Source: Methanosuratincola petrocarbonis
GTDB taxonomy: Archaea; Thermoproteota; Methanomethylicia; Methanomethylicales; Methanomethylicaceae
Assembly (NCBI GenBank): GCA_030522375.1
Contig: CP130488.1
Span: forward strand, 1,408,569 to 1,472,568
Direction: 5' to 3'
DNA: 64,000 bases
A program made the translations under genes and the position numbers. Position 1 is the stretch's first letter, and each line of letters begins with the position of its first letter. Below the pieces are notes generated by a model. That model ran no database searches. It had not been told where the DNA came from and saw only the letters and a program-made list of their open reading frames with translations. Shown piece by piece: positions 10,767 through 61,027 of this stretch.

Positions 10767-10816
10767 TCTCCGCACGGGAGTAAATGAAGCGCCCAAGCTT
10801 ATAGGAATTTCTTAAT

Positions 10817-11403: not shown

Positions 11404-11693
11404 AGAACCGCAGCAGGTCCAAGATCTCCGATTCCCCGGCTCCCAAGAGATCGGACAGGGCGCTGCCCAATTCTTCTAGCGCCTTCGCATCAATCTTCTC
11501 CAAGCGCACTAATAGGGAACTGATGCTGGCGAGAACCTCGACAGGGCTGGGGGGAGTTCTTTTGACCAAAGGAAGCTCCTCATTTTAACTCGGATTGTTC
11601 TGTTAATAAGCTTTAACAGCAAATGTGCTATTTTTGCACGGCGCAACCATCCGGGCGGCAGCTATTTTATAGAAGGCTGCGGATCCTACCAAT

Positions 11694-12549: not shown

Positions 12550-12629
12550 TATGAATCCCCCTAATAGCAGGGGCGCTTTTTAAAAACAGACGCTGCGGGT
12601 GTGAAAGGTTTTTATTTTCAAGGCTGGAG

Positions 12630-12818
12630 ATGTTTTCGATCAACATGGTGAAAGGGGTCTGCTGCGTCTGCCACAAGAACATCGGAGGGTTTTTCGAGGA
12701 GAGGGCATGGAGGTGCGAAGGGTGCGGCAGGCTTTACTGCAAAAAGTGCGCGCCCAAGAGGAAAGGGCTACTATCAGACCACCCGGTATGCCCAAGGTGC
12801 GGCAGGATGCTGAAGTAA
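12630..12818 (+). CDS. Double zinc-ribbon small protein
   Basis: 62 aa with four CxxC pairs (CCVC, CEGC, CKKC, CPRC). Confidence 0.5.
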   Translation: MFSINMVKGVCCVCHKNIGGFFEERAWRCEGCGRLYCKKCAPKRKGLLSDHPVCPRCGRMLK

Positions 12819-12910
12819 GGGAATGCTCAGCACGATCATTGGCAATTGGATAATGCTTCGTACGTTGAGAATGGAAAAGGCAAAGCATTGGCTGTTTATC
12901 AAGAAACTTC

Positions 12911-13055
12911 ATGGATTGCGAGGGGAGAGCTCTTCGGGAACAAAATCGAGCCGTAGGTGTAGGGAGCGACGCGTTCCCTGGCTGGGCTCGCGGTCCACTG
13001 GGGGAAAGTCCCACGGGAGGCGCGCCGGGCCGGAAGTGGAGGGGGGCGCTGAGGG
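12911..13055 (+). pseudogene. Decayed copy of the C2H2 zinc-finger ORF (junction cassette copy A, gene 1)
   Basis: Nucleotide homology to 58025-58186 (MDCEG... vs VDCGEELFGG...). A frameshift removes the CxxxxC...HxxxxH finger and the stop codon. Confidence 0.4.
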
Positions 13056-13256
13056 TTGAGCTGGAGGGAGGGCGAGGGCGTTCTGGAGCTCCTGCTCCTG
13101 AGGATGCGCGGGTGCGGGTCGAAGGAGGAGTGCCGGGAGGCGGTGGAAGAGGTCCTGACCCTCGTGAAGGAAAGGAAGCTCGAGAGATTAAAAGAGGACC
13201 TATGGATGATGGGAGAGATGTTTTTAAAAACAGTGCTTAATGAATTCTATTCTTAG
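13056..13256 (+). CDS. Small helical protein (junction cassette copy A, gene 2); TTG start
   Basis: LSWREGEGVLELLLLRMRGCGSKEECREAVEEVLTLVKERKLERLKEDL is paralogous to 58186-58347 and to the remnant at 16258-16353. High GC. Confidence 0.45.
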   Translation: MSWREGEGVLELLLLRMRGCGSKEECREAVEEVLTLVKERKLERLKEDLWMMGEMFLKTVLNEFYS

Positions 13257-13304
13257 CAAATAAGAACTAAACTTTTTATATAACAAACATTCATATTCTG
13301 CTGC

Positions 13305-14564
13305 ATGTCCAGTCTCAAGACCTTCTATGAATACGGCAAGGTCAGCAAGGATGATCTTGGACTGGACAGGCAAGACGTGAAGATTCTCGACAGGCTTGCT
13401 GACGAGAAGGCAGGCGTCCTCGATCATTCCAAAGGCGGGTACAGGTTAAAGCAGTACGTCGGGGCCATACCGCTCCACTCCTGCGTGCTTGAAGTTCTGC
13501 CAAAGATCTACAGGGGTGAGGGCGGCACGGTGCAAAACAGGTTGGCGCTATTCTGGCTGCTTTCGTTCGTAGGGGCCTTTGAAATAAAGGAGTCTGACTT
13601 TCTTAAGAAGGGCCTCGAGAAGATGGACTTCTTCGATCTGATGAAGTACGTATTCGCGAGGAACTTGAACGACCAGGTCAAGGACGGGGTCTACAGGGAC
13701 TACGTGCCGGCTGAGGGGAACGAGAGGTACCTCAAGGGCCGCCTAGACTTTGTGAAGGACATTCGCCACAACTACGCCGACAGGTCGAGGTTCTATGTCA
13801 GGTACGACGAGTATACGGAAGACAACCCGATGAACCGCACCCTTGCTGCTGCCGTCAGGGGCATGGTGCCGGGGTCGGGCGTGATGAGCAGGCAGCTGCT
13901 GGCTCGGCTCTCAGCCGCATTCTGCGACGTGGGTTACGAGAACGGGAACGGCCTACTAGTGCAGAGGGTCACGAAGAACCGCCTCAACGAAAGGTACTGG
14001 CCCTCTTATGAGATGGCAAAGATCTTCCTCTCGGGGAAGGTGCCACAGATCTATTCAGGGAAGGACCTGCTGACTTATGGATTCCTCTTCGACATGAACA
14101 GGCTATTCGAGGAGTTCGTGGGGAAATTCTTGAAGAGGCATGCGAACGAGATCTTCGGCGAGGGGGCCGAGGCGCTTGTTCAGCCGGGATACCGTTTCGG
14201 CGATCTCGCGATCAGACCCGACGTGATAATCCGCCTGAAAGACCGGACTATTGTTTTGGACACGAAGTACAAGGGCATCCCAGAAGAGACGGAGCGATCC
14301 AACGCCGACATCTTCCAAGTCTACACGTATTGCATGGCCATGAAAGAAAGAGATCCTTCGAACGAAGCGGTAGGCATCCTTCTCTATCCGAAGCACGTCG
14401 GCGAAGATGTAAACCAAAAATGCGAGACGAAGAGTGTAGGAAAAGTAAGCGAATACCATGCGAAGATATGCCGCCGGTTGATCGACTTGGATGTTGGCTA
14501 TGGCAGGGGCAATCTCGAAAAATTCGTCGAGAGGTTTGAAGAATTGTTTAAAGGAGCGATATGA
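13305..14564 (+). CDS. mcrC: McrC-like subunit of a Type IV (McrBC-like) restriction system
   Basis: 419 aa. C-terminal PD-(D/E)xK core IRPDVIIRLKDRTIVLDTKYKGI matches the McrC DxK nuclease motif. Stop overlaps the downstream McrB start (ATGA). Confidence 0.7.
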   Translation: MSSLKTFYEYGKVSKDDLGLDRQDVKILDRLADEKAGVLDHSKGGYRLKQYVGAIPLHSCVLEVLPKIYRGEGGTVQNRLALFWLLSFVGAFEIKESDFLKKGLEKMDFFDLMKYVFARNLNDQVKDGVYRDYVPAEGNERYLKGRLDFVKDIRHNYADRSRFYVRYDEYTEDNPMNRTLAAAVRGMVPGSGVMSRQLLARLSAAFCDVGYENGNGLLVQRVTKNRLNERYWPSYEMAKIFLSGKVPQIYSGKDLLTYGFLFDMNRLFEEFVGKFLKRHANEIFGEGAEALVQPGYRFGDLAIRPDVIIRLKDRTIVLDTKYKGIPEETERSNADIFQVYTYCMAMKERDPSNEAVGILLYPKHVGEDVNQKCETKSVGKVSEYHAKICRRLIDLDVGYGRGNLEKFVERFEELFKGAI

Positions 14565-16201
14565 AAATGAGCGATGAATCGTTCAATGAAACTATGAATA
14601 AAAAAGAAGATCCAGCAAGTAAATACAACTTTGGCGTAAATTTTTGGAAGGTTTCGCTAGGTCAAGGAGGCGTATACACAGAGGAGTTTATAGACAAAGA
14701 GATCTTTGCAATGGGAAGTTACAGAGTCATTTCTCTTCGTAATTTAAACGACTATGGAACTCCTGAGAAACTAGAAAAAGAAGTGCCCGAACTCTACTTT
14801 GGGGCTGAACACTATGGCGGAAATCAACTTGTCTGCATTTGGAAGAAAATGAAACGTGGTGACGTACTGTTAGCCTATAAAACAGGGACGATAACAGCTT
14901 TTGGAGTGGTTAATAGCGATTACAAATTTACTGATGAGTGGAAGTACTGGTGGTATTATGGAAATAGGTTGGGGTCGCATTATCGCAAAGTTAAATGGAT
15001 CAATCTTCTTCCTAATCCGATCCCTCTCGATGACAATGAAATAAAATTTTTAAAAGAACCTCAAAACACTATAAAGTCCTTCGAGGGACACGAAGACCTG
15101 CTATATAAAATCCTTGACAGGGCACCTTCAAAATTAATAGAAGAATTGCGAGAGCTCGTACAGAAATGCAAGTCAGTTGAACAGGAAGTTGAGCAGGAAG
15201 TGGAACCGGAAGTTGAGCAGGGATCAAAAGTGAAGAACCCTTTGAACGTCATCCTGTACGGCCCGCCGGGGACAGGGAAGACCTACGCGACTGAAGCGGC
15301 CATAATCGCGGTAGAAAAGGGGGATGACGTTCGCGAAGTTTTGCGCGAAGGGAACCTAAAGGATTACATTGAGAACAACGCAGAGAAATTAGAGGCATCC
15401 AAGCAAAGGATAAGGCGCGTAACATTCCACCCCAGCTACTCTTACGAGGACTTTATCGAGGGGATCACGGTCAGGACGGGCAACAACGGCCAGGTTGTTT
15501 ACGAAGTCAAGAAAGGCGCGTTCAGAGAGCTGGCGGAGGAGGCGCTGGATCACCTGGATAACAAGTACTATCTGGTGATCGACGAGATAAACAGGGGGAA
15601 CATTTCCAAGATATTCGGCGAGCTGGTGACGCTGATAGAGGAGGACAAAAGGTGTGGCAACCCGAATGACGGATACTGCGCCACGCTGCCTTACTCAAAA
15701 GAAGAGTTTAGGGTCCCGAAGAACCTCTACCTGATAGGGACGATGAATACATCCGACAGGAGCATTGCGCTGGTGGACCTGGCCCTCAGGAGGCGCTTCG
15801 AGTTCATAGAACTGATGCCGAGACCGGAAATCCTGGGCGGTGTGCAATTCAATGGAATCGACCTTGAGGGGCTGCTGGAAACAATCAATGAAAGGATCAA
15901 AAAGCTAGGTGAGAGAGACAAGCAGATAGGCCACGCCTACTTCATGGATGGTGAAGAACCCATCAGAGACCTCCGCAGACTGAAAGACGTATGGTTCAAC
16001 AAGGTACTGCCACTTCTCAATGAGTACTTCTACGGCCGGTGGGAGGACATTGCCTATGTATTGGGCGGCGAAAAGGGAGGCGAAGCCCCCTTCCTGGAAA
16101 GGTTGACGGAGGAAGACGCAGACCTTTACGACTTTAAGGGCTACATGGAGGACGAGGAGTTCATCGATGAGTTGAATAAGGTAATCCAAAGGCAGGAATA
16201 G
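14561..16201 (+). CDS. mcrB: McrB-like AAA+ GTPase with N-terminal EVE/PUA-like reader domain
   Basis: Walker A ILYGPPGTGKT. McrB signature LVIDEINRGNISKIFGELVTLIE and GTMNTSDRS..DLALRRRFEF. The N-terminal ~200 aa are AT-rich with an EVE-like pattern (NFWKVSLGQG...MKRGDVLLAYKTGTITAFGVVNSDYKF). Linker repeat QEVEQEVEPEVEQ. Confidence 0.85.
   Translation: MKMSDESFNETMNKKEDPASKYNFGVNFWKVSLGQGGVYTEEFIDKEIFAMGSYRVISLRNLNDYGTPEKLEKEVPELYFGAEHYGGNQLVCIWKKMKRGDVLLAYKTGTITAFGVVNSDYKFTDEWKYWWYYGNRLGSHYRKVKWINLLPNPIPLDDNEIKFLKEPQNTIKSFEGHEDLLYKILDRAPSKLIEELRELVQKCKSVEQEVEQEVEPEVEQGSKVKNPLNVILYGPPGTGKTYATEAAIIAVEKGDDVREVLREGNLKDYIENNAEKLEASKQRIRRVTFHPSYSYEDFIEGITVRTGNNGQVVYEVKKGAFRELAEEALDHLDNKYYLVIDEINRGNISKIFGELVTLIEEDKRCGNPNDGYCATLPYSKEEFRVPKNLYLIGTMNTSDRSIALVDLALRRRFEFIELMPRPEILGGVQFNGIDLEGLLETINERIKKLGERDKQIGHAYFMDGEEPIRDLRRLKDVWFNKVLPLLNEYFYGRWEDIAYVLGGEKGGEAPFLERLTEEDADLYDFKGYMEDEEFIDELNKVIQRQE
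15170..15225 (+). repeat. 12-nt tandem repeat encoding the (Q/P)EVE linker in McrB
   Basis: gaacaggaagtt gagcaggaagtg gaaccggaagtt gagcagg. Confidence 0.6.
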
Positions 16202-16257
16202 TTCAACTTTTTTATTTTTATGAACTCGGGAGTTCGTTTGGCAGTTGAGATAGAGAT

Positions 16258-16353
16258 TGGATGCGAGGGCGAGTAAATTATGCTCTCGTCCTGGCTTTGG
16301 TCAAGGAAAGGAAGCTCGAGAGGCTGAAGGAGGAGCTGGGGATGATGGAGTAA
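16258..16353 (+). pseudogene. 3' remnant of the cassette small gene (copy B)
   Basis: ...CEGE* then a frame shift to LVLALVKERKLERLKEELGMME*. The core ggtcaaggaaaggaagctcgagaggctgaaggaggagctgggg is near-identical to the copies at 13151-13215 and 58275-58340. It sits between the convergent mcrB and RM genes. Confidence 0.5.
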
Positions 16354-16355
16354 AC

Positions 16356-19235
16356 TCAGACTCTGGTCCTGGCCCTGCGGAGCTCCTGCAGCTCTTTCAG
16401 CCCCTCTTCGACCTGGCGCCTTTCCTTTTCCGTCAGACCCAGGATGTCGTAGACGGCTTCGTCCAGCTCTTTCTGGGCCTTCTTCTCGGCTTCGATGGCC
16501 TCTTCCAGCTGTTTCCTGGCTTCGATCTCGAGGATGCCGGGTTGATCCTTCTTTTTGGAGCGGAGCGATTCCAAGGTCTCTTCGGCTTTGATGCTTTTGT
16601 TGATGGTGTTTGCAAGTTTCAAAAAGGCATTGCGCAGTTCCTGTTTTTCTGACGCGTTTATGCAATTCATGTCTATTACAGGCATTTTTTTAAGCTCGTA
16701 TACTTCGATTTTCAAAACTCCGCCACCGTAGGAACGACCAAACAGCTCAACTATTAGATGCAAAATCGATGAGTTAAGAAAAGCAGCATACGAAAACCTA
16801 TCCTCATGATTACGGAGTTTGATAAAATGAAGCACGTTAGGCGCATAAATTGTGCCTTCTAATAGATATGCTTTTGATTTTGTATCGATCATATACTGGA
16901 AAATAAGGTCAGGGTCCAACAATCTAGGCAGCACATACCACAACTTCCTCCCCTTTAAGGTCTCTAGTTCAGGCAGCCGCCTCCTTTCCTGCTTCGATCC
17001 CCTGGTGACCTCTACCTCCATCCTCTCGCCGTACTCGATGTACTTCAGGGCATTCGTCCCCTTCAGCTCCTCCTTCGGCTTGTCGCACATGAAGAAGTAT
17101 TCGTCGACTTCCTCCGGCTTTATGACCAAGCCGCGGACCTTCTTGGGCGAAGAGACGCACGGGACAAGGAACTCGGGCTCTATGCCCCACTCCTCCGCTT
17201 TTTCTTTGGAAAGTATGAAGAAGTCGTTGCATCCCGTAGTCGGTCCCCTCACGACTTCAGCAACTTCGCCGAGCGGCCTCATTTTCGGGTGTTTCATCAG
17301 CTTCTTGAATACGGGCGGGGCCCTCAGGTAAACGTTCCACTTCCCCGGCTTGAGCTTGCCCTGCTTCACGACGGTGACCCTTATCCTATCGTCCTCGATG
17401 TCCTCCTCTGACTCAAGGAGCTTCAGCAGCTCCTCATTACTGATCCTCTTCTTTACCCTCACGAACCTAGCCAGGTTCTCTTCCCTCTTCTTCTCGTCCT
17501 TTTCCTTCTGCAAGATCGTGATTGCAGTGTTCACTTCAGCGTCCGGGAAGACAGCCCTGTCGAACTCGATTACGTAGAGGATTTTTGTGTTCCTAAGCAG
17601 GAACTCCTGGAAGGGCTCGCCGTACCCGACCTCCAGCCACTTGTTCGAGGATATGTAACCGAGCATCCCTCCCTGCTTCAGGAAGCGTATCGAGTGGATG
17701 TAGAAGTAGACGTAGATGTCGCTCATCCTGTCCAGGACGATCCCCTTCTTGTTCTTTGCCTGCCCCACGAAGAGCTGGTCCTTGTACTCCTCCTGCACCA
17801 GCTGGAAGATCTTCCTCTTTTCCGAGTCGCCAAGAAGCTCCTGGCGTATGTACGGCGGGTTGGCTACGACGGCGTCGAAAGCCCCGGGGATCTTGATCAG
17901 CATCTGCTTCCCCTCGGTGTCCATGCTCCTGAAGCCCATCAGGGTTTCCTGGCGGGGCTTGAGGTCGAAGAAGTCCTTCACGGCGACGTTTATCTTTTCC
18001 ACCTTCGCCTTCGGGTTCTGTATCGCCAGGTTGATTACAGATAAGTGGGCGGGGAACTGGTTTATGTCCACGCCGTATACCTGCGCTAAAAGCTGCCTGT
18101 GGAAGATCTCGCCCAGGGGCCCCGACATCTCTTTTGGTATCCCGTTGAGCTCCCTCAGGCGCTGGTAGACTTTTACGAGGAACGACCCTGAACCACAAGC
18201 GGGGTCGAGTACCTTGGCGTCCTTCTTAGTGACGGTGAGCCTGACGATCAGGTCCACTATCTCGGGAGGGGTGTAGAACTGCCCGAGGCGCTTCCGCTCT
18301 GTGGGCGGGATGAGCTTCTCGTAGACCCTCCCGAGGAAGTCGCTTTCCATCTTCGAATAGTCGTACTCGTTCAGCGAGTCGATGAGCGTTCTGAACCTTT
18401 CCTTCGCCCTCTCGGTGAATGGGATCTCGTTCATGAGGTCAGGCTGGTATATCGGCTCGTAGTCGATGTTCCTCACTTTCTCGTAATAGTGCATCAAAGA
18501 GTCGTAGACGTCCTCCTCTTCGCCTATCGCTATCCCGGGGAGCTTGTTTGGGTATATCGTCCTGATGACGTCGTAGAAGAGGAGCTTGTTGAGCTGGAGG
18601 TAAGTAGTCTGGTCTGCGATCTTCCTGACGTCCTCCGGATCGTCGGGCCTGAGGCCCTGGTCGAGCATCCACTTTTCGAACCTGGCTCTGAAGCTGTCGT
18701 CCTGGAGCCTCTTCTTGAGCGACGAATGGAACTCTTCCCTGAGGTCCTCGTAAGCCTCGTGGAGGAGCTCGACCAGCGAGTCGTCCACGGCCTTGAGCGA
18801 GACCGGGACTATTCCGAGGACCATCTTAAGCAGCTGCTCGGCCCAGCCATCGTTCCCCTCTACGTCGATGGAAGCAACCTCGCTCTCGTAGGGCTTCTTC
18901 CCCGGCATCAACTTGAACAGGACGAGGCGCTTCGGGTTGCACGTGGCGTAGTAGGGGTAGCCGCCGTTGGAAGCGTAGGAAACGGCTTGAGAGATCACAT
19001 CCGGATCCCTTGGCTCTATGTCCCTTTTGACTCCGCCCACCTTCTTCTTGTACTTCGCCTCTATGACCAGGAGGCGCCTCCCCGACTGCTCGACTACGAG
19101 GTCGGCTTTACCACCGTTGACCTGCTTCTCTGTGTGTAAGTCGAGGTCCAAGCTAAGCTCTTTGGCTGCCTCCTTAAGATTGTAAAAGAGCCTGTTGGTG
19201 ACGAAGTCGGACTCGGACACGAGCTGGGCGGGCAT
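16356..19235 (-). CDS. Type IIG restriction-modification enzyme (N-terminal PD-(D/E)xK nuclease fused to gamma-class N6-adenine MTase and TRD)
   Basis: 959 aa. N-terminal D...LLVIEAKYKKK nuclease motif. MTase motifs in gamma order: FYTPPEIV (X), LDPACGSGSFL (I), VVANPPY (IV). Large C-terminal region consistent with a target-recognition domain. Confidence 0.75.
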   Translation of the reverse strand: MPAQLVSESDFVTNRLFYNLKEAAKELSLDLDLHTEKQVNGGKADLVVEQSGRRLLVIEAKYKKKVGGVKRDIEPRDPDVISQAVSYASNGGYPYYATCNPKRLVLFKLMPGKKPYESEVASIDVEGNDGWAEQLLKMVLGIVPVSLKAVDDSLVELLHEAYEDLREEFHSSLKKRLQDDSFRARFEKWMLDQGLRPDDPEDVRKIADQTTYLQLNKLLFYDVIRTIYPNKLPGIAIGEEEDVYDSLMHYYEKVRNIDYEPIYQPDLMNEIPFTERAKERFRTLIDSLNEYDYSKMESDFLGRVYEKLIPPTERKRLGQFYTPPEIVDLIVRLTVTKKDAKVLDPACGSGSFLVKVYQRLRELNGIPKEMSGPLGEIFHRQLLAQVYGVDINQFPAHLSVINLAIQNPKAKVEKINVAVKDFFDLKPRQETLMGFRSMDTEGKQMLIKIPGAFDAVVANPPYIRQELLGDSEKRKIFQLVQEEYKDQLFVGQAKNKKGIVLDRMSDIYVYFYIHSIRFLKQGGMLGYISSNKWLEVGYGEPFQEFLLRNTKILYVIEFDRAVFPDAEVNTAITILQKEKDEKKREENLARFVRVKKRISNEELLKLLESEEDIEDDRIRVTVVKQGKLKPGKWNVYLRAPPVFKKLMKHPKMRPLGEVAEVVRGPTTGCNDFFILSKEKAEEWGIEPEFLVPCVSSPKKVRGLVIKPEEVDEYFFMCDKPKEELKGTNALKYIEYGERMEVEVTRGSKQERRRLPELETLKGRKLWYVLPRLLDPDLIFQYMIDTKSKAYLLEGTIYAPNVLHFIKLRNHEDRFSYAAFLNSSILHLIVELFGRSYGGGVLKIEVYELKKMPVIDMNCINASEKQELRNAFLKLANTINKSIKAEETLESLRSKKKDQPGILEIEARKQLEEAIEAEKKAQKELDEAVYDILGLTEKERRQVEEGLKELQELRRARTRV

Positions 19236-54997: not shown

Positions 54998-55222
54998 TTA
55001 AAACTTGTGATAATTTGGTATTGATGCGATGGCGGGTCCGGAGGGATTTGAACCCTCGACCATTGACTTAGAAGGCCGCCGAAGGGGGGATTTTTCATCA
55101 GACACGGCAATTTTGATGATGTTTTGGGGGGTTGTACCGTACAGCTTCGAGAGTGCCAAGAGCTTCTCGTAGAGGTCCTCCGGGAGCGTCAAGGATCGGA
55201 AGCCTTTCCGGGGCATAAACAA
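54998..55222 (-). CDS. Ribbon-helix-helix (CopG-like) protein whose C-terminus reads through a tRNA 3' fragment
   Basis: RSLTLPEDLYEKLLALSKLYGTTPQNIIKIAV is an RHH fold. The last ~25 codons overlap the tRNA-like sequence at 55030-55078. Confidence 0.4.
   Translation of the reverse strand: MFMPRKGFRSLTLPEDLYEKLLALSKLYGTTPQNIIKIAVSDEKSPLRRPSKSMVEGSNPSGPAIASIPNYHKF
55030..55078 (-). other. tRNA 3'-half fragment (putative att site remnant)
   Basis: Reverse complement ...GGTCGAGGGTTCAAATCCCTCCGGACCCGCCA is a perfect T-arm, 7-nt acceptor 3' strand, discriminator and CCA. The matching 5' acceptor strand GGGTCCG is absent on either side. Confidence 0.45.
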
Positions 55223-55296: not shown

Positions 55297-55917
55297 TCAT
55301 GCTCTGCTTACATGGCACAACTCAATTATCCCCGACTGCCTGTAATGCCTACCAATCACCTGCAAGATCTGCCAGGAGTTCCTGAGGATGTCCTTCTGGT
55401 CGGTCGTAATGAACAAAAAGAAAATTCCTCGACTCTGGGCCCAGTCGGCGGCGTCGGCTATTATCTGGGCGTCGTTTTTGTTTCCTATGAAGTAAAGGCT
55501 GTCTACTAGTAAAAAGTCCTTAGAGCGGTCTATCAGCGGCTGGGCGGTCTTTTCCAGCGCTTCTTTTATGCTCTGCTTTATTGTGGAAAACAATAAGGTA
55601 AACCCGTAGTGCGCTTCTTCCTGGCTTTTACATTTTATTGATTTAGCCGCTTCTGATAAGAAAGCGCGGCGGTTCGGGTTCCGCTCGTTTTGCAGGGCGC
55701 GCTCTACGCTGCCCTGGCGCAGTATTTCTTTCAGAAACCTATCCATGTACCTGAAGAGCTCATCCAGCTCGCTCTTGACCGTGAGGCTGGTGTGCTTCCG
55801 ATACGCGCCTCCGTCAATGACCCTGCAGCAGTCGCTTTTATGTGGATTCCAATCCGTAGCGTACCCGTAGTAGATGCAGGTGTCTAGGAAGCAATCCGAA
55901 TGCACTTGGCTACCCAC
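55297..55917 (-). CDS. PIN-domain protein (206 aa)
   Basis: FLDTCIYY (first acidic motif), SELDELF, and C-terminal FFLFITTDQKDI (TxD motif). The extended middle region is unassigned. Confidence 0.5.
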   Translation of the reverse strand: MGSQVHSDCFLDTCIYYGYATDWNPHKSDCCRVIDGGAYRKHTSLTVKSELDELFRYMDRFLKEILRQGSVERALQNERNPNRRAFLSEAAKSIKCKSQEEAHYGFTLLFSTIKQSIKEALEKTAQPLIDRSKDFLLVDSLYFIGNKNDAQIIADAADWAQSRGIFFLFITTDQKDILRNSWQILQVIGRHYRQSGIIELCHVSRA

Positions 55918-57073
55918 GAGTCAGCGCCCCTATGAGCAACCCGGCGAGCGCCTCGCCGTCGCCGTACGACTCTTTGTAGAACTCCTTCATCTCTCTCGAC
56001 GATGCGAGTGAGCCGGCTTTAGACAGCATGATCTCGAATCCTTCAATATCCTTAGGGGCAGCCCTGAGCGCCCGCTCCAATTTAGACAGTTGGGCCTCTC
56101 TAATTTGATCGGCCCTCAACCCCTTCACCGTGGCTATAGAGAACAGGAGGGCGACGGGCTTCCAGACGTGCATGCTGTAAAATTCATACACGCGGCCCAG
56201 TTCCAGGAGTAACTTCCTGTCATGCGATGCCTTGATGGAGTACCTCTGGAAGACCTCGACGAATTTCTGGAATTGGTCGTACAGGCCAACGGATGTCATT
56301 TCCTGGCACGCCGGCGGTATCCGGTCGCCGGAGGAGCGCGCGTACTCTTCAAGCCGAGAGTAGAACTCGTCTTTTGCGAGCTCCGCAAGCATCTGGGCCA
56401 GCAGCAGGTTTTGGTTGTGGAGCGGATCGACCCGGGAGGGCACATCGATGAAGCGATCAATCCCAACGGTGCTGCAGTTTACGCCCTCCAAGAGCCTCTT
56501 TGTGGAGTAGCTCAGCTTACTATTGAGCTGGTAGAGTTTTTTGCAGAAGCCAGGGGCCTGATCGTAGAACTTTTCCAGGAAATCTTCAAGCTTTTTGAAG
56601 TATACCTCGGTCACAACCGTCTTGACTTCGCCGTAGTACTGCGCGCTCGGCAGCCCGAACTCCTCCGGGGCGATCCCGCCGACATCATTCTCACACGATT
56701 TAGGCTTCAGGTCCAGGTCGTATGACGCCATCAGCCCCTCGTCGATTTCGCCCCGGTCGTCGACGTCCAACAGGTCGCTGTGGACGTACCCGCCGTAGAG
56801 GTACCAGCTCCTCGTGATAGGGATGTCGAGCCTCTCTGCTATGAGGAAGACCATCTTCTGGAGCTTGACCTTAGATAAATAGGTCGTTCTCGGTCCGCGC
56901 CCCTCGATTTCCCGTCTCAAGTCCCTCAGGATCATTCTGAGGATCCTTTCCTCGTCCTGGGGGCTTAGGAGCGTTGGCAAAAAGGTCACCCGTAAATTGA
57001 GCAAATCATAATTTAACTTTTGTAATTGAAATATTTTTTGTTTTTTAGGTCGCTGGAGCGGCCGCACCCGCAT
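55910..57073 (-). CDS. Hypothetical protein (388 aa); start trimmed to MRVRPLQ
   Basis: The upstream part of the track ORF runs antisense through the neighbouring gene and looks spurious. No family recognised. Confidence 0.4.
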   Translation of the reverse strand: MRVRPLQRPKKQKIFQLQKLNYDLLNLRVTFLPTLLSPQDEERILRMILRDLRREIEGRGPRTTYLSKVKLQKMVFLIAERLDIPITRSWYLYGGYVHSDLLDVDDRGEIDEGLMASYDLDLKPKSCENDVGGIAPEEFGLPSAQYYGEVKTVVTEVYFKKLEDFLEKFYDQAPGFCKKLYQLNSKLSYSTKRLLEGVNCSTVGIDRFIDVPSRVDPLHNQNLLLAQMLAELAKDEFYSRLEEYARSSGDRIPPACQEMTSVGLYDQFQKFVEVFQRYSIKASHDRKLLLELGRVYEFYSMHVWKPVALLFSIATVKGLRADQIREAQLSKLERALRAAPKDIEGFEIMLSKAGSLASSREMKEFYKESYGDGEALAGLLIGALTRG

Positions 57074-57087
57074 ATCGTTTGCATCTT

Positions 57088-57893
57088 TCAGGCCGGTTTT
57101 TCCCTGATCTCGAAGACGCACCTCTTGTTGCCCTTCGCGATGCACTCGGTCTCTTCGACCTGGAAGGGCTTCCCGAAGACCTCCGCGAAGACACCGGCGA
57201 TTATCCCCCTCACCATGGCCCCGTATGGCTGCCCGGTCACTTTTGCACCATTGCACTCGAAGGAGTCGTAGACGGCGATCTTCCCGCCCGAGTCCCCGAG
57301 GTGGATCACCTCGATCCTGCCGAACCCCGCCCACTGGAATGCGGCGGTGCTGATGCGGCGGTAGATCTCTACTGGGTCCTTCAGCCCGACCGCTTCAGCG
57401 GCTGATCTGTGCAGCTTCCCGAACCCTTTGCCTGCCTCGAGCCCCTCGTAGTACAGGAAGGCCTCGCCGCCGGATCCGAACTGCTCCTTTATCCCCCTGA
57501 TGAGCCGCCTGTACCCGGCTGCTCTGAGGATTATCGCCCTGTCGCCCCCTGCCGTCAGAGGATGGGACAGGTTGTCGATGATCAAGCCTTCGGCGACGGG
57601 CTCGATGATCTTCACCTGGCTGGCCATCCCGGTGGACTCGAGCTCCTGAACGAGCTCGTTCATCGGGACGTCGCACTCCGTCACGTCCAGGAAGGTTATG
57701 ACGGGGTACGAATCGGTCGTCGCCGAGGGCGAGGAGGCGAAGTACATCGGCAGCGCCCTGTGCCTGGCCGCCGTCTTGGTCAGGGCGGGGAGGGTATCGG
57801 GGTCGGCCTTGATGATGAACCTCAGCCCCGCTAGCTTCCTGCCCGGCAGCACGAGCATTCTAGACAAGTCGAACTCATAGCTCATAGTGTTTA
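57088..57893 (-). CDS. V4R-domain protein (predicted small-molecule-binding regulator)
   Basis: C-terminal V4R pattern: SFECNGAKVTGQPYGAMVRGIIAGVFAEVFGKPFQVEETECIAKGNKRCVFEI. Start set at MSYEFDL. The track ORF extends spuriously to 58197. Confidence 0.5.
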
Positions 57894-58024
57894 ATTTCCG
57901 TTTTGCAAAAATAACACTTTCGCCCCCGAGTCCTGGCTTCCGCTTTCCGGAAATTCTTAAGCCTCCCGGAGGCGGATCGGCGTGGTGCTGGTGGGTTTCC
58001 GTGATCGGAAAGAGGCCGTCGCTC

Positions 58025-58186
58025 GTGGACTGCGGGGAGGAGCTCTTCGGCGGGAGGGTCAGGTGCAAGTACAGGGGGTGCAGGAAGTGGTGCGCCTCCT
58101 GGCTGGGTCTGGCCGTGCACCTGAGGAAGGGGCACGGGGTGTCGGCGTCGGAGGTGTCCTGGAAGGACCTGGAGGGGGAGCGGTGA
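58025..58186 (+). CDS. Small C2H2 zinc-finger protein (junction cassette copy C, gene 1)
   Basis: (V/M)DCGEELFGGRVRCKYRGCRKWCASWLGLAVHLRKGHGVS... contains C-x4-C-x12-H-x4-H. Its stop overlaps the gene 2 start (TGATG). GC about 65%. A longer ATG-initiated frame begins at 57887. Confidence 0.45.
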   Translation: MDCGEELFGGRVRCKYRGCRKWCASWLGLAVHLRKGHGVSASEVSWKDLEGER

Positions 58187-58347
58187 TGGGCTGGCACGAG
58201 TGCGAGGGCGTCCTTGAGCTGGTCCTTGTGAGGATGAAGAGGTGCGCAACGGCGGAGGAATGCCGCGGGGCCGTGGAGGAGGTCCTTGCGCTGGTCAAGG
58301 AAAGGAAGCTCGAGCGGCTGAGGGAGGAGCTGGGGGTGATTGGATAG
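58186..58347 (+). CDS. Small helical protein (junction cassette copy C, gene 2)
   Basis: MGWHECEGVLELVLVRMKRCATAEECRGAVEEVLALVKERKLERLREELGVIG is paralogous to 13056-13256 and the remnant at 16258-16353. AT-rich foreign DNA begins immediately downstream. Confidence 0.5.
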   Translation: MGWHECEGVLELVLVRMKRCATAEECRGAVEEVLALVKERKLERLREELGVIG

Positions 58348-58778
58348 ATTTTAAACTCTTTCTAAACGCTAATGAGGCAATTCGTGGCCCATATTTCTGT
58401 GATCGGGGAAACAATGATCTGCAACGACGATATCCTAAATGCAAATTATCTGAGAATTCAGCAGGTCTCATCATAACCCTCCACATCATGTGATTAATCA
58501 ATATCTTTTTTTGTCATGGAATCCGAAAAGATCGCCCCCCGATCATCTAATTACAGGAGCGCGCTCATCTTATAAAGGTCTACACATTTCATGGCGATCC
58601 ATGTCTCTATTAAACTTCGAAAAATAAAAGAAAGATTCTCTATATGATGTTTAATTTGTAGTAATGAGTCGCTCAAATAAACTAAAGGTTTCATCACGCA
58701 CTAGAGTTAGATAAAACATATATTTCCAATAGCTTATATGATGCTTACTTTTATATTAAAAATTAGGAGTGTTCTACA

Positions 58779-59375
58779 TTGAATCCAGACGATGCATTTG
58801 AGCAAAATAAAGAATGCATACCTTTTTCTGAGATAATCAAAAAAACTACCGGTCACGAAGTCCAACCACTTTCGAAAGAAGATAACGATGTGATAAATGA
58901 AATATCTGAAGCAGCTAAAAAAATTTTAGAGAGATACAAAAACGAAGTCTTTTCTGATCGACGACCTAATGAAGTTAGCAATCTTTTAGAAAGAGAATTA
59001 AGAGCTTCGCTTAAGGGTGCTAGCATACCAGAAAATAAAGCTGCAGGGTATCCAGACATCCTGATTGTAAGAGGACCTCGCTGTTTCTATATAGAAGTGA
59101 AACTGACCGGTGAAGAACAGACCGATAGTTCTTTAAGGTCTTTCTATTACGAGCCGGCAAAAAATGTTAAAATAAAAAAAGATGCGCGCCATATCCTAAT
59201 TGGATTTGAACACCGCAATAAAAATTTACATAAATTCAAAATTGTTGATCTTTCAAAAATAAATGTTTGTTTGAAAAAAGAATTCAATGCTAATAATAGA
59301 GAACTTTATAAAAAAGAGGCAATCGTGTTAGAATATCCCCCAGAAAAGTCAAATCAGTCGACTTTGGCAGGTTAA
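58779..59375 (+). CDS. Type II restriction endonuclease (PD-(D/E)xK)
   Basis: [20 protein letters not shown] gives a PD...ExK core. About 33% GC. TTG start preceded by AGGAG. Its 3' end overlaps the convergent MTase gene by 27 nt. Confidence 0.55.
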
Positions 59376-60194
59376 CCTCAATTCATTTATCCTCTTTTCT
59401 GCCTCTCTGGCATAGTATTCGTCTATCTCAAAACCTATCCAATCTATTCCCAGTTTTTTACAAGCTATGGCAGTATTACCAATGCCCATAAATGGATCGA
59501 GAACGAGTTGTGTCTTGCTAACCCCATGAAGTTTGATGCACGTCATTGGAACCTCAGGCGGAAATGACGAAGGATGAGGCCTTTGCTTTTCTTTTGATCT
59601 TATGGTATTATATGGAATAAACCAAGTGTTACCACGACATCTTAAATCTTTACTTACCGATTTCCATCTTCCTATGTTCGATTTATCTTGATAAGGCACA
59701 CCTATTGCCAGTCTATCAAGTTCAACATCCCCTTTTTTTGTAAAATGAAAAATGTATTCAAAGCAGTCATTAAGAAAGCGTTTCCCACCAATTGGTTTAA
59801 AATGCCCAACAGCAATATCGCCCTTTATGTTTGGATAATCCCCAACATCTTCTTTCTTTATGGCGATAGACTTGACCCAAATGATAATGTTCTGAAGCGT
59901 GAAGTATTTTCTTAACCTGAAAGCGACTTCCCATGGCACCCAAAGATCGGTAGGCTTGTGCCCAAAGTTAAGGAAGAATGATCCATCTTTGTGCAATACA
60001 CGCCTACACTCTTTTCCTACTTCGTCAATCCAAGCTAAGTAATCTTCCCGAGGTATAGTGTCGTCATATTTATTGTACTTCACCCCAATATTGTATGGAG
60101 GCGAAGTAACGATTACATCGACTTCTTCTGGGTTGAGAAGGGTTTTCATACCTTCCAAGCAATCCATTACATAGATTTTGTTTCTTTCAATCAT
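59349..60194 (-). CDS. Beta-class DNA methyltransferase (N4-cytosine/N6-adenine; SPPY motif)
   Basis: Motif [14 protein letters not shown] lies N-terminal to motif [14 protein letters not shown], i.e. beta-class order. N-terminal [13 protein letters not shown]. Confidence 0.85.
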
Positions 60195-60432
60195 CGTCTA
60201 AACCTCAAGCTCAATCCACTTTTTTCTTGCTCTTTCAATCTTTTAAGCACATACTCCATGGCATGGGTTCCATTAGCGAACCGTTAAGAGCTTATTAAAG
60301 TGCCTATCCATGAAAGTAAATTCTCATCTAAAGAGATGCTTGCCTTCATTTTTCCCATTTCATATACCTCATAATATTGATTATATTGGCTTTTTTATTG
60401 ATCAATTTTGAGTTGTGATAAGACATGGCAAA

Positions 60433-60699
60433 TTAATCCTCCGCCAGAGCTCTTATTTCCTCCAGCTTCTCGGCCACCTTCTTCCCCTTCTCGGTTAGCG
60501 AGATGAGTCTTCTAGGAGGGAAACTTTCTTCACGCTTCTCAGTAATTAGACCGAGACTCAAAAGAATTCTAAGATTATTGTAAACAGTCTGCCGGTTCAT
60601 TTTGCCAAATGAAACAATATCTGACAAAGTCCACTCTTTCTTCGAGTCGCTATTTAGTACTGTCAAAATCTCTTGAGCTGGACTAAGCAGGTTATTCAT
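60433..60699 (-). CDS. Small wHTH regulator upstream of the MTase (possible controller)
   Basis: 88 aa. NRQTVYNNLRILLSLGLITEK is a winged-helix recognition element. Same strand as the MTase. Confidence 0.45.
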   Translation of the reverse strand: MNNLLSPAQEILTVLNSDSKKEWTLSDIVSFGKMNRQTVYNNLRILLSLGLITEKREESFPPRRLISLTEKGKKVAEKLEEIRALAED

Positions 60700-60762
60700 A
60701 TTCTATCAAATAAGACTATATTAAATATGCTATTTTACCATTTTCCAGCTTATTGTCTATCT

Positions 60763-60802
60763 CATAGATGATAGATAAAGTTTATATATCCATCTATCAT
60801 TG
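60763..60802. promoter_or_regulatory. Inverted repeat flanking a TATA-like box (candidate operator/promoter of the RHH operon)
   Basis: CATAGATGATAGATA-aagTTTATATAt-CCATCTATCATTG. The arms ATAGATGATAGAT and ATCTATCAT are complementary. The site lies 36 nt upstream of the 60839 start. Confidence 0.4.
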
Positions 60803-60838
60803 TATATTGATTAGATAAAAGATAAATGGTGAAGAGAC

Positions 60839-61027
60839 ATGGCAAAAGTCGGAAAGCCAGGTTTCGAAGGCCAAGAGGTCTTGGTGAAGATCCCGAAGGA
60901 CCTCCTGGCTGAGGTGGACGAGCTCTGGCCCAGGGCGCAGTGCACCTCCAGGAACGAGTTCATCCGGAGGGCCCTGTGGAGGGCTGTCCGGGACGCCAGG
61001 CGATCGGCGGAGGTGCCCGCGGCTTGA
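60839..61027 (+). CDS. Ribbon-helix-helix (CopG/Arc) protein
   Basis: VLVKIPKDLLAEVDELWPRAQCTSRNEFIRRAL is a beta-alpha-alpha RHH signature. Confidence 0.55.
   Translation: MAKVGKPGFEGQEVLVKIPKDLLAEVDELWPRAQCTSRNEFIRRALWRAVRDARRSAEVPAA

What the first reader, a model, noticed from the sequence alone, without database searches (positions are those of the whole stretch)
12911..16353. A conserved ~65-nt purine-rich core of a small-gene cassette sits at three separate junctions with foreign defense DNA
The sequence GGTC(A/G)AGGAAAGGAAGCTCGAG(A/C)G(G/A)(T/C)TGA(A/G)GGAGGAGCTGGGG(A/G)TGAT occurs at 13151-13215, 16296-16350 and 58275-58340, always on the + strand. At all three sites the DNA immediately 3' of the core switches to a different, lower-GC defense cargo: mcrC-mcrB after copy A, the Type IIG RM gene (opposite strand) after remnant B, and a ~33% GC Type II RM pair after copy C. 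Copy B is only the 3' remnant, consistent with repeated insertion or recombination at this sequence. This looks like a site-specific acquisition hotspot for defense modules, loosely analogous to integron att sites or gene-3'-end targeting islands. I cannot match it to a described system.
Basis: seen in the sequence. Interest (0 to 1): 0.85.

Follow-up and report, generated by a model that had tools for sequence, protein, structure and literature searches.

The report
Defence-cargo hotspot in archaeal integrative elements
The repeated 65-base sequence is the end of a small gene carried by virus-like elements integrated in the genome of the methanogen Methanosuratincola; the DNA right after it is a slot where restriction and other defence genes are repeatedly swapped, which is a known kind of arrangement seen here in a new archaeal lineage.

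Summary
Three + strand copies sit at 13152-13215, 16288-16353 and 58282-58347, against 0 expected by chance. The core is the last ~22 codons of a 53-aa helical-hairpin protein (gene2). Gene2 follows a 61-aa C2H2-like protein (gene1). Its conservation is at the protein level: synonymous sites vary as much as in the rest of the gene, and it has no DNA or RNA structure.

The pair is the integrase-proximal operon of small integrative elements with an SSV-type, self-splitting integrase. These elements are found only in Methanosuratincola and its relatives. Copy C has int(N) plus a tRNA-like att 3 kb upstream. A relative (L044) shows the full element between perfect 49-bp att repeats in tRNA-Val.

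Between gene2 and a convergent HxlR gene lies a variable slot. At least 15 different cargoes start at or near the gene2 stop, nearly all restriction-modification or defence genes. Cargo differs between strains whose flanks are 98-99.9% identical.

Copy B is a scar. McrBC is flanked by cores A and B, and recombining them would restore gene2 abutting the Type IIG gene, the arrangement seen in relatives.

"Hotspot" is supported. "Site-specific att-like site" is not. This is a new member of a known kind, of moderate interest.

The parts
55029..55075 (-). Left attachment site of integrated element C: the 3' half of a tRNA-Arg(TCT)-like sequence, translated as part of the integrase (..GSNPSGPA).
   Evidence: Sequence read directly. 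tRNA-3'-end-like repeat family D6. Matches the att-coding part of the L017 integrase.
55028..55216 (-). int(N): the N-terminal 63 codons of a split SSV-type tyrosine integrase.
   Evidence: tblastn 60% identity to residues 1-63 of the intact 361-aa integrase of L017, E 5e-17. That integrase carries Pfam Phage_integrase. Its best matches among phage records are fusellovirus integrases. No int(C) is present in the window.
55297..57088 (-). Two genes of unknown function (206 aa and about 390 aa) between int(N) and the V4R gene. They are absent from the related element L044, so this may be a second variable slot.
   Evidence: ORFs. No Pfam or PADLOC hit. Comparison with L044.
57088..57900 (-). V4R-domain protein, a backbone gene of the element.
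   Evidence: Pfam V4R 8.6e-17. 86% aa identity to the L044 homologue in the same position. Also present in L053 and L048.
58001..58186 (+). gene1, copy C: a 61-aa protein with the motif C-X4-C-X12-H-X4-H (C2H2-like). Its stop overlaps the gene2 start (TGATG).
   Evidence: ORF and motif read from the sequence. Homologues are 61-63 aa. AF2 gives a beta-beta-alpha fold at low confidence, pLDDT 62. No Pfam or PDB hit.
58186..58347 (+). gene2, copy C: a 53-aa helical-hairpin protein. Its last ~22 codons (58282-58347) are core C.
   Evidence: ORF. 25 homologues, all from Methanosuratincola or Methanomethylicia. AF2 pLDDT 89, helices 3-17 and 23-51.
58348..60454 (.). Variable cargo slot of element C: Type II REase 58779-59375 (+) and N4/N6 methyltransferase 59349-60194 (-). 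GC 0.37.
   Evidence: PADLOC REase_II 2.5e-22. Pfam N6_N4_Mtase 1.3e-45. GC. Homology to L016 and L017 resumes at about 60450-60455.
60433..61027 (.). Right-hand backbone of the slot: an HxlR-like wHTH gene 60433-60699 (-), convergent with gene2, and an RHH gene 60839-61027 (+).
   Evidence: Pfam HxlR 1.5e-5. 89.8% nt identity to L016. The same pair lies to the right of the cargo in L045 and L052; L044 has HxlR only.
12911..13055 (+). gene1, copy A: degraded, with a frameshift, deletions and in-frame stops.
   Evidence: Alignments with copy C, L002 and L053. Only weak tblastn similarity.
13056..13256 (+). gene2, copy A: TTG start, stop codon lost, 66 aa. Core A is 13152-13215. The 5' part is nearly identical to strain L002, while the core carries many A/T-ward changes.
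13305..16201 (+). McrBC (Type IV restriction) cargo: mcrC 13305-14564 and mcrB 14561-16201. It is flanked by cores A and B.
   Evidence: Pfam. The same cassette-to-mcrC junction occurs in element L053 at 80% nt identity. The arrangement is identical in 5 further assemblies.
16288..16353 (+). Core B: the 3' remnant of a second gene2 (codons 33-53 plus stop). It lies 2 nt from the stop of the Type IIG gene.
   Evidence: (92.5% identity to the L002 gene2 end). Joining 13056-13151 to 16288-16353 gives an intact 53-codon gene2.
16356..19235 (-). Type IIG restriction-modification gene (959 aa), convergent with gene2. It directly abuts an intact gene2 in L044 and L024; in L025, L031 and L033 gene2 likewise runs straight into a Type IIG 3' end.
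   Evidence: Pfam. Junction sequences. tblastn.

Best explanation
The core is the 3' end (about the last 22 codons plus stop) of gene2, a 53-aa helical-hairpin protein. Gene2 is co-transcribed with gene1, a C2H2-like small protein.

The pair is a backbone operon lying next to, and divergent from, the integrase gene of a family of small integrative elements. These elements have an SSV-type 'suicidal' tyrosine integrase with a tRNA-derived att inside the int gene. They are restricted to Ca. Methanosuratincola and related Methanomethylicia.

In these elements the stretch between the 3' ends of two convergent backbone genes (gene2 -> ... <- HxlR) tolerates any insert, and it has become a defence-cargo hotspot.

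Inferred mechanism: cargo is exchanged by ordinary recombination. The conserved backbone serves as a homology arm. This includes gene2 and, where present, the conserved last ~250 nt of the Type IIG gene. The other end is completed by a second homologous crossover or by an illegitimate join. Selection keeps gene2 and the neighbouring restriction gene intact, so surviving junctions pile up within a few nucleotides of the gene2 stop.

Copies A and B lie in a decayed chromosomal island with no integrase left. A cassette-plus-McrBC segment, like that of element L053, recombined into a resident cassette/Type IIG unit. This left the resident core as scar B, which can equally be described as a long target duplication flanking McrBC.

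Shown: the anatomy, the family distribution, the strain polymorphism and the protein-level constraint. Inferred: the recombination route and the role of gene1 and gene2, which are probably DNA-binding or regulatory backbone proteins.
For: 1. The core is coding and constrained as protein. In 21 distinct full-length sequences, diversity at codon positions 1 and 2 is 0.06 and 0.05 in codons 31-50, against 0.19 and 0.14 in codons 1-30. Diversity at position 3 and at synonymous sites is 0.18 against 0.19-0.23. AF2 places the core in the long C-terminal helix. There is no structure signal, with z between -0.75 and +0.55.

2. It sits in a mobile-element backbone.
   - int(N) with a tRNA-like att lies at 55028-55216.
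   - An intact integrase lies 128 nt upstream of gene1 in L017.
   - L044 is a complete integrated copy. It has perfect 49-bp repeats at 8026-8074 and 15763-15811, the latter inside tRNA-Val. These enclose int(N), V4R, gene1, gene2, Type IIG, HxlR and int(C).
   - The integrase's nearest relatives among phage records are fusellovirus integrases.
   - L017 also carries a DnaA-like protein.

3. It is a hotspot.
   - At least 15 different sequences start after the gene2 stop.
   - Cargoes include McrBC, Type II and Type IIG RM, C5 MTase with HhH-GPD, DndB-like, ThaI, TIR, Mrr, PLD, DUF3800 and PDC-M19A.
   - The right border, HxlR with RHH, is conserved.

4. Strains differ at identical junctions.
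   - Window versus L002: the flanks are 99.6% and 99.9% identical, yet 3.1 kb of mcrCB plus B stands against 3.3 kb of four other genes.
   - L030 versus L031: at least 98.4% identity over 3 kb upstream, with different cargo.
   - L054 is 99.2% identical up to 240 nt inside the Type IIG gene, then carries another allele.

5. There are recombination footprints.
   - Divergence from L002 rises from about 12300 to 13215.
   - The A-to-mcrC junction is shared with L053.
   - L002 has a second degenerate core plus Type IIG 3' remnant.
   - L019 and L042 keep Type IIG 3' scraps.
   - Joining A and B restores gene2 next to Type IIG, which is the 'empty site' seen in L044.

6. The family is tiny. There are 9 loci in 185,579 species genomes and 21 hits in 1.84 billion representative proteins.
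Against: - No recombination event was observed; the route is inferred from end products.
- Two independent cargoes are flanked by core copies (window A..B; L002 core1..core2). At least six remnants keep only the last 18-27 codons (window B, L002 core2, L037/P0024, L041, P0023, P0025). This clustering is more than a naive random-breakpoint model predicts. It could point to a preferred site or to a function of the core DNA.
- Many cargoes begin exactly at the stop codon.
- Island A has no integrase or att remnant, so its origin from an integrative element is inferred from the cassette and the Type IIG unit alone.
- The synonymous-site test is biased for codons 37-48, because the metagenome loci were retrieved with a pattern covering them.
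- The function of gene1 and gene2 is unknown: no Pfam, PDB or fold match.
Confidence: 0.7

Rival explanations
1. The core, or its 5' edge, is a dedicated recombination site at which defence modules are captured and released. This could be integron-like, or a preferred target for 'insertion with long target duplication', possibly with gene1/gene2 or an unknown enzyme as the recombinase.
For: - McrBC is flanked by cores A and B, and the reciprocal product is an intact gene2.
- L002 has a second case, with core1 and core2 flanking the 373/77/180 genes.
- The left limits of at least six remnants fall within codons 27-36.
- At least 7 cargoes start directly after the same '..GVLK TGA'.
Against: - Synonymous sites in the core are not specially conserved.
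- The core has no hairpin or inverted repeat.
- Most cargoes have no core copy at their far end: nhmmer finds one core per locus except in the window and L002.
- The 356-aa gene is flanked by Type IIG 3' repeats instead.
- Breakpoints also occur at +14-23, +17 and about +30 nt.
- Cores A and B are only 80% identical, and A carries changes found in neither L002 nor L053.
- The only recombinase present uses a tRNA-type att.
- The clustering can be explained by the need for a homologous crossover upstream and an intact restriction gene downstream.
Confidence: 0.1
2. The core DNA is retained because it serves the neighbouring convergent gene. It might act as 3' UTR, terminator or antisense target of the Type IIG transcript. 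Alternatively, gene1/gene2 are regulators of the adjacent defence genes, so the association is functional rather than positional.
For: - Remnants B and L037 each abut a Type IIG 3' end. L002 core2 abuts a Type IIG 3' remnant, and in L019 an intact core does the same.
- Stops are only 2-10 nt apart, so Type IIG transcripts must end inside the core.
- The - strand of the core is pyrimidine-rich (CTTCCTTTCCTT).
Against: - There is no oligo-T run of 5 or more and no structure.
- L002 and L016 carry intact Type IIG genes without an adjacent core.
- Cargo orientation relative to the cassette is inconsistent, both co-directional and convergent.
- Cargoes are unrelated systems that would not share one regulator.
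- Remnants P0025 and L041 are not next to a Type IIG gene.
Confidence: 0.08
3. gene1 and gene2 form an addiction (toxin-antitoxin-like) or maintenance module. It stabilises the element and is therefore always kept at the border of the dispensable cargo.
For: - Two tiny genes with overlapping stop and start (TGATG).
- They are always together in intact elements.
- They have a narrow, fast-evolving distribution.
Against: - No match to any TA, PADLOC or Pfam family (for neighbours; 75, 93, 94).
- gene1 is degenerate while gene2 stays intact at locus A in several strains.
- In L007-L014 only a gene2 lacking its N-terminal part, with no gene1, survives. This is unexpected for a two-part addiction pair.
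- Not tested experimentally.
Confidence: 0.07
4. This is an ordinary paralogous small-gene family whose conserved C-terminus happens to lie near variable DNA in this window. There is no real junction association.
For: The core is indeed just the conserved C-terminal coding region.
Against: All of the roughly 25 distinct loci recovered show variable, defence-rich DNA beginning at or near the gene2 stop, including between strains with 98-99.9% identical flanks. The family occurs only in this context.
Confidence: 0.03

Closest known systems
Defence hotspots inside mobile elements and at conserved chromosomal sites. Examples: P2/P4 prophage and satellite hotspots (Rousset et al. 2022, from my own knowledge); Pseudomonas core defence hotspots (PMC10250203); pipolins (PMC11551731); E. 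coli defence islands (PMC10121019).
   Same: Conserved flanking backbone genes bracket a slot whose content differs between close relatives and is dominated by defence systems. Unknown genes in the slot are candidate defence genes.
   Different: The host is an archaeon (Thermoproteota methanogen). The carrier is an element with an SSV-type split integrase. The left marker is a lineage-specific 53-aa gene. Some elements are very small (7.7 kb in L044) and carry little besides backbone and RM genes.
SSV-type ('type I', suicidal) integrase elements of archaea (She et al. 2001; Badel et al. 2020, PMC7253208; review PMC8371274).
   Same: attP lies inside the int ORF and corresponds to the 3' part of a tRNA gene. 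Integration splits int into int(N) and int(C) at the two ends. All of this is seen in L044, and the int(N)/att end is seen in the window.
   Different: The lineage is new: the literature search found no paper combining Methanosuratincola with integrase. The integrase is only about 23-24% identical to fusellovirus integrases. The backbone genes (V4R, gene1, gene2, HxlR, RHH) are different.
[quoted passage not shown]
   Same: McrBC (Type IV) is flanked by ~61-nt direct repeats, and the empty site has a single copy. Unrelated RM genes substitute for one another between strains. A Type IIG allele swap has its breakpoint inside the gene (L054). An RM-plus-integrase unit sits in a tRNA gene (L044).
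   Different: The two repeats are only 80% identical and probably come from two different cassettes, so this is recombination rather than true duplication. The same target gene end is used again and again, within a mobile-element backbone.
Integrons (intI, attI, attC gene cassettes).
   Same: Variable genes accumulate at one place downstream of a conserved module that lies next to a tyrosine recombinase gene. One cargo here is flanked by repeats.
   Different: There is no attC-like folded site. Cargo lies in both orientations, with multi-gene units that presumably have their own promoters. The recombinase acts on a tRNA-type att to move the whole element. Repeats are absent from most cargo borders.

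Membership tests
SSV-type (suicidal) integrase integrative element | The attachment site lies inside the integrase ORF, and integration splits the gene into int(N) and int(C) at opposite ends of the element. | tested here: met
   L044 has int(N) at 8095-8214 and int(C) at 15418-15741, inside perfect 49-bp repeats. The window has int(N) at 55028-55216 ending in the att. The int(C) end lies outside the window or is lost. Definition taken from PMC7253208.
SSV-type (suicidal) integrase integrative element | att corresponds to part (usually the 3' end) of a tRNA gene. | tested here: met
   The right repeat of L044 is the 3' part of tRNA-Val(TAC) at 15764-15839. The window att at 55029-55075 reads as the anticodon-loop-to-CCA half of a tRNA-Arg(TCT)-like sequence.
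SSV-type (suicidal) integrase integrative element | Tyrosine recombinase catalytic domain related to fusellovirus integrases. | tested here: met
   The L017 integrase has Pfam Phage_integrase and Phage_integr_3 and matches phrog_5127 integrase at 1.3e-24. Its best matches among phage records are SSV and APSV1 integrases at 23-24% identity. No phylogeny was made.
Mobile-element defence hotspot (P2/P4-like) | Conserved backbone genes on both sides of a slot in related elements. | tested here: met
   gene1/gene2 lie on the left. HxlR lies on the right in window C, L016, L044, L045 and L052, followed by RHH in all but L044.
Mobile-element defence hotspot (P2/P4-like) | Slot content differs between closely related elements or strains. 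| tested here: met
   At least 15 junction classes. Window versus L002, L030 versus L031 and L054 versus window have 98-99.9% identical flanks.
Mobile-element defence hotspot (P2/P4-like) | Slot content is enriched in defence systems. | tested here: met
   About 14 of 16 cargo classes contain a recognised RM or defence domain. No formal enrichment test against a genome background was made.
Integron | attC-type sites: imperfect inverted repeats that fold as a hairpin and bound every cassette. | tested here: not met
   The core and its flanks fold no better than shuffles on either strand, with z from -0.75 to +0.55. A core copy is absent from the far end of most cargoes.
Integron | An IntI-type integrase recombining attI x attC next to the array. 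| tested here: not met
   The adjacent integrase is SSV-type with a tRNA-derived att in its own ORF. IntI-specific features were not examined.
[quoted passage not shown] 2010) | An RM unit under 20 kb is flanked by direct repeats over 30 bp that align to a single copy in the genome without the insert, with no other mobile element. | tested here: inconclusive
   McrBC (3.1 kb) lies between 61-nt repeats A and B. Single-copy 'empty' junctions occur in L044 and L024. However, the repeats are only 80% identical. The empty site is in another element rather than the same locus. The A-to-mcrC junction is shared with L053, which favours recombination between two cassettes. Criteria taken from PMC2853133.
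C2H2 zinc-finger protein (gene1) | C-X2-4-C-X12-H-X3-5-H motif on a beta-beta-alpha fold. | tested here: inconclusive
   The motif C-X4-C-X12-H-X4-H is present in copy C and in its homologues P0026 and P0027; L053 and L019 encode similar proteins. AF2 gives beta-beta-alpha but at pLDDT 62. No Pfam or PDB match.
RM controller (C) protein | A small HTH protein encoded upstream of, and co-oriented with, the restriction gene it controls. | tested here: not met
   Neither protein has an HTH. The orientation to the cargo is inconsistent.

The most novel reading that the evidence does not exclude
The 3' end of gene2 is a genuinely preferred target for the poorly understood insertion mode of restriction and defence genes that produces long direct repeats. 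It may be aided by the cassette's own proteins. Methanosuratincola elements would then carry a dedicated, re-usable docking site for defence modules: an archaeal, integron-like capture system without attC hairpins. The evidence does not exclude this. There are two independent core-flanked cargoes, remnants that all keep only the last 18-27 codons, and many cargoes that start exactly at the stop codon.
Probability: 0.1. Interest if true: 0.7.

Novelty: new member of a known kind. Interest (0 to 1): 0.4.

Why it matters
- It shows how restriction and other defence genes are shuffled in Methanosuratincola, a recently cultured methanogen lineage outside the Euryarchaeota. No mobile element from this lineage turned up in the literature search.
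- It provides two short marker genes, gene2 and HxlR, that bracket a defence slot. The unannotated genes found in that slot become candidate archaeal defence systems by the same 'guilt by location' logic that worked in bacteria. These include the recurring 373/77/180-aa trio, a 509-aa protein, and 339-aa, 275-aa and 145-aa proteins.
- It extends the known range of SSV-type self-splitting integrases.
- It gives a clean natural example, with 'filled' and 'empty' forms, of RM-linked rearrangements in an archaeon.
- It does not reveal a new recombination mechanism.

Tried and rejected
- Secondary structure of the core on both strands: nothing above shuffles, so an attC-like folded site was dropped.
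- Bacterial promoter and terminator scan: uninformative for an archaeon.
- Att-like repeats or integrase remnants around island A: none found, so A/B cannot be shown to be an integrated element by itself. The intron-containing tRNA at 10817-10912 is on the wrong side and in the wrong orientation to be its att.
- Function of gene2: Foldseek against the PDB, a PDB sequence profile and Pfam gave only non-significant helical matches. Gene1 gave no hit either.
- IMG/VR viral contigs: no relative, so the element cannot be called a virus on that basis.
- Further core copies in the window: the weak nhmmer hits at 29737-29774 and 62388-62431 lie inside unrelated genes and were treated as chance.
- L015 was discarded, because its genes are all head-to-tail on one strand and it looks like concatenated CDS.
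- I considered that core A is orthologous to the degenerate core2 of L002, since they share the A/T-ward changes 'AAAAGAG' and 'TGG'. The similarity is too short to support this.
- I considered the 57-aa ORF before the Type IIG gene in L019 as a second cassette. It is an unrelated zinc-ribbon gene.
- Literature searches for described Methanosuratincola or Verstraetearchaeota mobile elements found nothing.

Full report
**1. The observation**

The limits are A 13152-13215, B 16288-16353 and C 58282-58347 (repeat family D3; alignments). B is 90% identical to C, and A is 80% identical to B. A 47-nt degenerate pattern finds exactly these three sites against 0.00 expected from shuffles.

A and C share about 330 nt (D1), whereas B is only the last 67 nt.

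The downstream genes are as described:
- mcrC and mcrB follow A (Pfam).
- A 959-aa Type IIG enzyme on the opposite strand has its stop 2 nt from the end of B.
- A Type II endonuclease plus an N4/N6 methyltransferase follow C.

The GC statement is only partly right. The cassette is unusually GC-rich (0.65-0.67), mcrCB is 0.49 and the RM pair is 0.37. The Type IIG gene (0.54) is not below the window mean of 0.50.

**2. What the core is**

The 330-nt unit holds two small genes.

Gene1 (copy C 58001-58186, 61 aa) has the spacing C-X4-C-X12-H-X4-H of a C2H2 finger. This is read from the sequence. AF2 gives a low-confidence beta-beta-alpha fold, and there is no Pfam or PDB match.

Gene2 (58186-58347, 53 aa) starts at the TGATG overlap with gene1. 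AF2 predicts a helical hairpin with pLDDT 89. No fold or sequence relative has a known function.

The core is the last ~22 codons of gene2, that is, most of the long C-terminal helix (..VLALVKERKLERLREELGVIG*).

In copy A, gene1 is frameshifted and gene2 has lost its stop. B is a 30-codon ORF remnant.

I compared 21 distinct full-length gene2 sequences. The core is much more conserved than the rest at codon positions 1 and 2 (0.06 and 0.05 against 0.19 and 0.14). It is not more conserved at position 3 or at synonymous sites (0.18 against 0.19-0.23). There is a caveat: codons 37-48 were part of the retrieval pattern for the metagenome loci.

The core and its flanks fold no better than shuffled sequence on either strand. 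So the sequence is conserved because it encodes a conserved helix, not because it is a DNA site.

**3. Where the cassette lives**

Gene2 has only 25 relatives among 5.8 billion clustered proteins. It has 21 among 1.84 billion representatives and 9 loci in 185,579 species genomes. All named sources are Ca. Methanosuratincola or other Methanomethylicia, apart from one contig binned as Jordarchaeaceae.

The window itself is 99.6-99.9% identical in its flanks to Ca. M. petrocarbonis assemblies.

Three kb upstream of copy C, 55028-55216 (- strand) encodes the first 63 residues of a tyrosine integrase. That integrase is intact (361 aa) in contig L017, where it lies 128 nt from gene1 and is divergent from it. 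The fragment ends in a tRNA-like 47-nt sequence (55029-55075) that is translated as part of the protein.

This is the hallmark of SSV-type 'suicidal' integrases. Their att lies inside the gene, and integration splits the gene into int(N) and int(C) (PMC7253208).

The complete genome of M. verstraetei LCB70 shows the whole structure (L044). Perfect 49-bp direct repeats lie at 8026-8074 and 15763-15811, the latter being the 3' part of tRNA-Val(TAC). They enclose int(N), a V4R gene, gene1, gene2, a Type IIG gene, an HxlR-like gene and int(C), 7.7 kb in all.

The integrase's nearest relatives among phage records are fusellovirus and APSV1 integrases at about 23-24% identity. L017 also encodes a DnaA-like protein of the kind found in such viruses. 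No relative was found in IMG/VR.

The cassette is therefore part of the mobile DNA, not a chromosomal target. It turns up after at least six different neighbours: a zinc-ribbon gene, TauE, AhpC, a radical-SAM gene, V4R and the integrase.

**4. The hotspot**

To the right of the cargo of copy C lie an HxlR-like gene (60433-60699, - strand, convergent with gene2) and an RHH gene (60839-61027). HxlR lies to the right of the cargo in L016, L044, L045 and L052 as well, followed by the RHH gene in all but L044. Nucleotide homology to L016 resumes about 20 nt inside the 3' end of HxlR. The variable slot is thus bracketed by the 3' ends of two convergent backbone genes.

A scan of JGI metagenomes with the core pattern gave 24 more loci. 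Taken with the other loci, at least 15 unrelated sequences begin at or within a few nucleotides of the gene2 stop.

The cargo includes:
- McrBC (window A, L053).
- Type IIG enzymes of several alleles.
- Type II systems with N4/N6 or C5 methyltransferases, the latter with an HhH-GPD glycosylase.
- A ThaI system.
- A DndB-like protein with a PLD nuclease.
- A TIR protein.
- An Mrr-like nuclease.
- DUF3800.
- A recurring 373/77/180-aa trio whose last member matches the PADLOC candidate PDC-M19A.

- Window versus L002: 99.6% and 99.9% identity on the two sides, with homology ending 4 nt before the gene2 stop and resuming at the Type IIG stop.
- L030 versus L031: at least 98.4% identity over 3 kb upstream, with a Type II system against a Type IIG gene.
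- L054 versus the window: 99.2% identity until 240 nt inside the Type IIG gene, then a different allele and a different right flank.

**5. Copy B and the McrBC insert**

In L044, L024 and related contigs, an intact gene2 directly abuts the Type IIG gene, with stops 8-10 nt apart. In the window that junction is kept by B.

Joining the 5' part of gene2-A (13056-13151) to B (16288-16353) gives an intact 53-codon gene2. So McrBC lies between two copies of the gene end.

The A-to-mcrC junction is not unique. Element L053 (int(N), gene1, gene2, mcrC...) has the same junction at 80% identity.

The 5' half of gene2-A is almost identical to L002. Core A carries a dozen, mostly A/T-ward, changes that are found in neither L002 nor L053. 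Divergence from L002 rises steadily from about 12300 to 13215.

The simplest reading runs as follows. A cassette-plus-McrBC segment recombined into a resident cassette/Type IIG unit through a homologous crossover in the cassette. The right end joined just upstream of the resident core, the only place that spares the Type IIG gene.

A second such case exists in L002. A degenerate core plus 25 nt of Type IIG 3' end (12120-12200) lies between the 373/77/180 trio and a 356-aa gene.

Further scars exist. L019 and L042 keep short Type IIG 3' scraps after gene2. L037 fuses the start of gene1 to the core. P0025 fuses the RHH gene to the core.

These patterns match the categories described for bacterial RM genes by Furuta et al. 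2010: insertion with long target duplication (including Type IV systems), allelic substitution, Type IIG domain swaps, and RM-plus-integrase units in tRNA genes (PMC2853133).

**6. Site-specific or not**

Points that favour a special site:
- Two independent core-flanked cargoes.
- Remnants that all retain only codons about 27-36 onward.
- Many cargoes that begin exactly at the stop codon.

Points against:
- No extra synonymous constraint.
- No structure.
- No core copy at the distal end of most cargoes.
- Other breakpoints at +14 to +30 nt.
- Type IIG-derived repeats, rather than core repeats, around the 356-aa gene.
- Unequal divergence of A and B.
- The only recombinase present acts on a tRNA-type att.

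The clustering can be explained without a special site. A homologous crossover needs the upstream part of the cassette. The next gene downstream is a restriction enzyme whose disruption is likely to be selected against. Intergenic space is only 2-10 nt. Viable junctions are therefore confined to the gene2 end.

I put the recombination-plus-selection model at 0.7 and a dedicated capture site at 0.1.

**7. Verdict**

It is partly wrong in that the core is a protein-coding gene end inside a mobile-element backbone, not an att-like site or a chromosomal target.

The system is a new member of known kinds: an SSV-type integrative element, a mobile-element defence hotspot and RM-linked rearrangements. 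It occurs in a lineage where none had been described in the literature I could search.

Its practical value is as a marker-flanked slot for finding archaeal defence genes. Interest: 0.4.

Noticed in passing
window 9204-10912: The TiaS (agmatidine synthetase) gene at 9204-10535 lies next to an intron-containing tRNA with anticodon CAU at 10817-10912 (- strand). This tRNA is probably its substrate, tRNA-Ile2.
   Followed up: no
L002 10167-12079; L016 3645-5555; L039 (first 2 kb after gene2): A trio of genes (about 373, 77 and 180 aa, - strand) recurs directly after gene2 in L002 and L016; L039 has homologues of the first and third. These versions are 65-75% identical. Only the 180-aa protein has a hit, to the PADLOC candidate PDC-M19A (2.7e-9). 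This is a candidate archaeal defence system.
   Followed up: partly
window 16356-16600; L054 8129-8370: The last ~250 nt of the Type IIG gene are 91-95% conserved among otherwise different alleles. L054 is 99.2% identical to the window up to 16594, then carries another allele (955 aa) and a different right flank. This looks like domain or allele swapping with a breakpoint inside the gene.
   Followed up: partly
L017 (18-kb contig JBCQFN010000002.1 of GCA_039630675.1): This contig carries an intact 361-aa SSV-type integrase, gene1/gene2, a methyltransferase-containing cargo, a DnaA-like protein (phrog_5484) and many ORFs with no match. It is probably the free or complete form of the element, either a virus or a plasmid.
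   Followed up: partly
window 55297-57088: Two genes of unknown function (206 aa and about 390 aa, - strand) lie between int(N) and the V4R gene. They are missing from the related element L044, so this may be a second variable slot.
   Followed up: no
window 15175-15221: mcrB contains three 12-nt tandem repeats encoding an acidic EQEVEQEVEPEVEQ linker between its N-terminal domain and the AAA+ domain.
   Followed up: no
window 61221-61982: This RHH-domain protein carries an Asn/Tyr-rich low-complexity stretch (..YNYNDYNYNGYNYN..). It is followed by a Viral/Archaeal nuclease-family gene at 61888-62607.
   Followed up: no
P0025 (3.6-kb contig of a MAG labelled Jordarchaeaceae): An RHH protein like window 60839-61027 is fused in frame to the gene2 core. 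This would result from deleting the whole slot together with part of both backbone genes. The taxonomic label suggests mis-binning or transfer.
   Followed up: no
L057 and L058 (= window 13097-16334 and 13118-16327): Independent short-read assemblies break inside gene2-A and inside core B. The repeat therefore fragments assemblies, and many metagenome contigs end at the cassette.
   Followed up: yes
window 11884-11900 and 12922-12938: The 17-nt string GGGGAGAGCTCTTCGGG occurs identically in the glutaredoxin-like gene and in degraded gene1 (both encode GELFG). This is unexplained and may be chance.
   Followed up: no
L044 12897-13044 and 13131-13278: A 148-nt direct duplication (93% identity) of the 5' end of the Type IIG gene sits just upstream of the gene.
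   Followed up: no
window 11370-11645: This 275-nt block differs completely from strain L002, which has about 100 nt there, within otherwise identical sequence between the 109-aa ORF and the glutaredoxin-like gene.
   Followed up: no
L050 3728-3865 and 10001-10120: A 12-kb Methanosuratincola contig carries two gene2 copies 6.3 kb apart. A methyltransferase lies between them, and an int(N) fragment is co-directional with gene1 rather than divergent. This may be tandem or rearranged elements.
   Followed up: no
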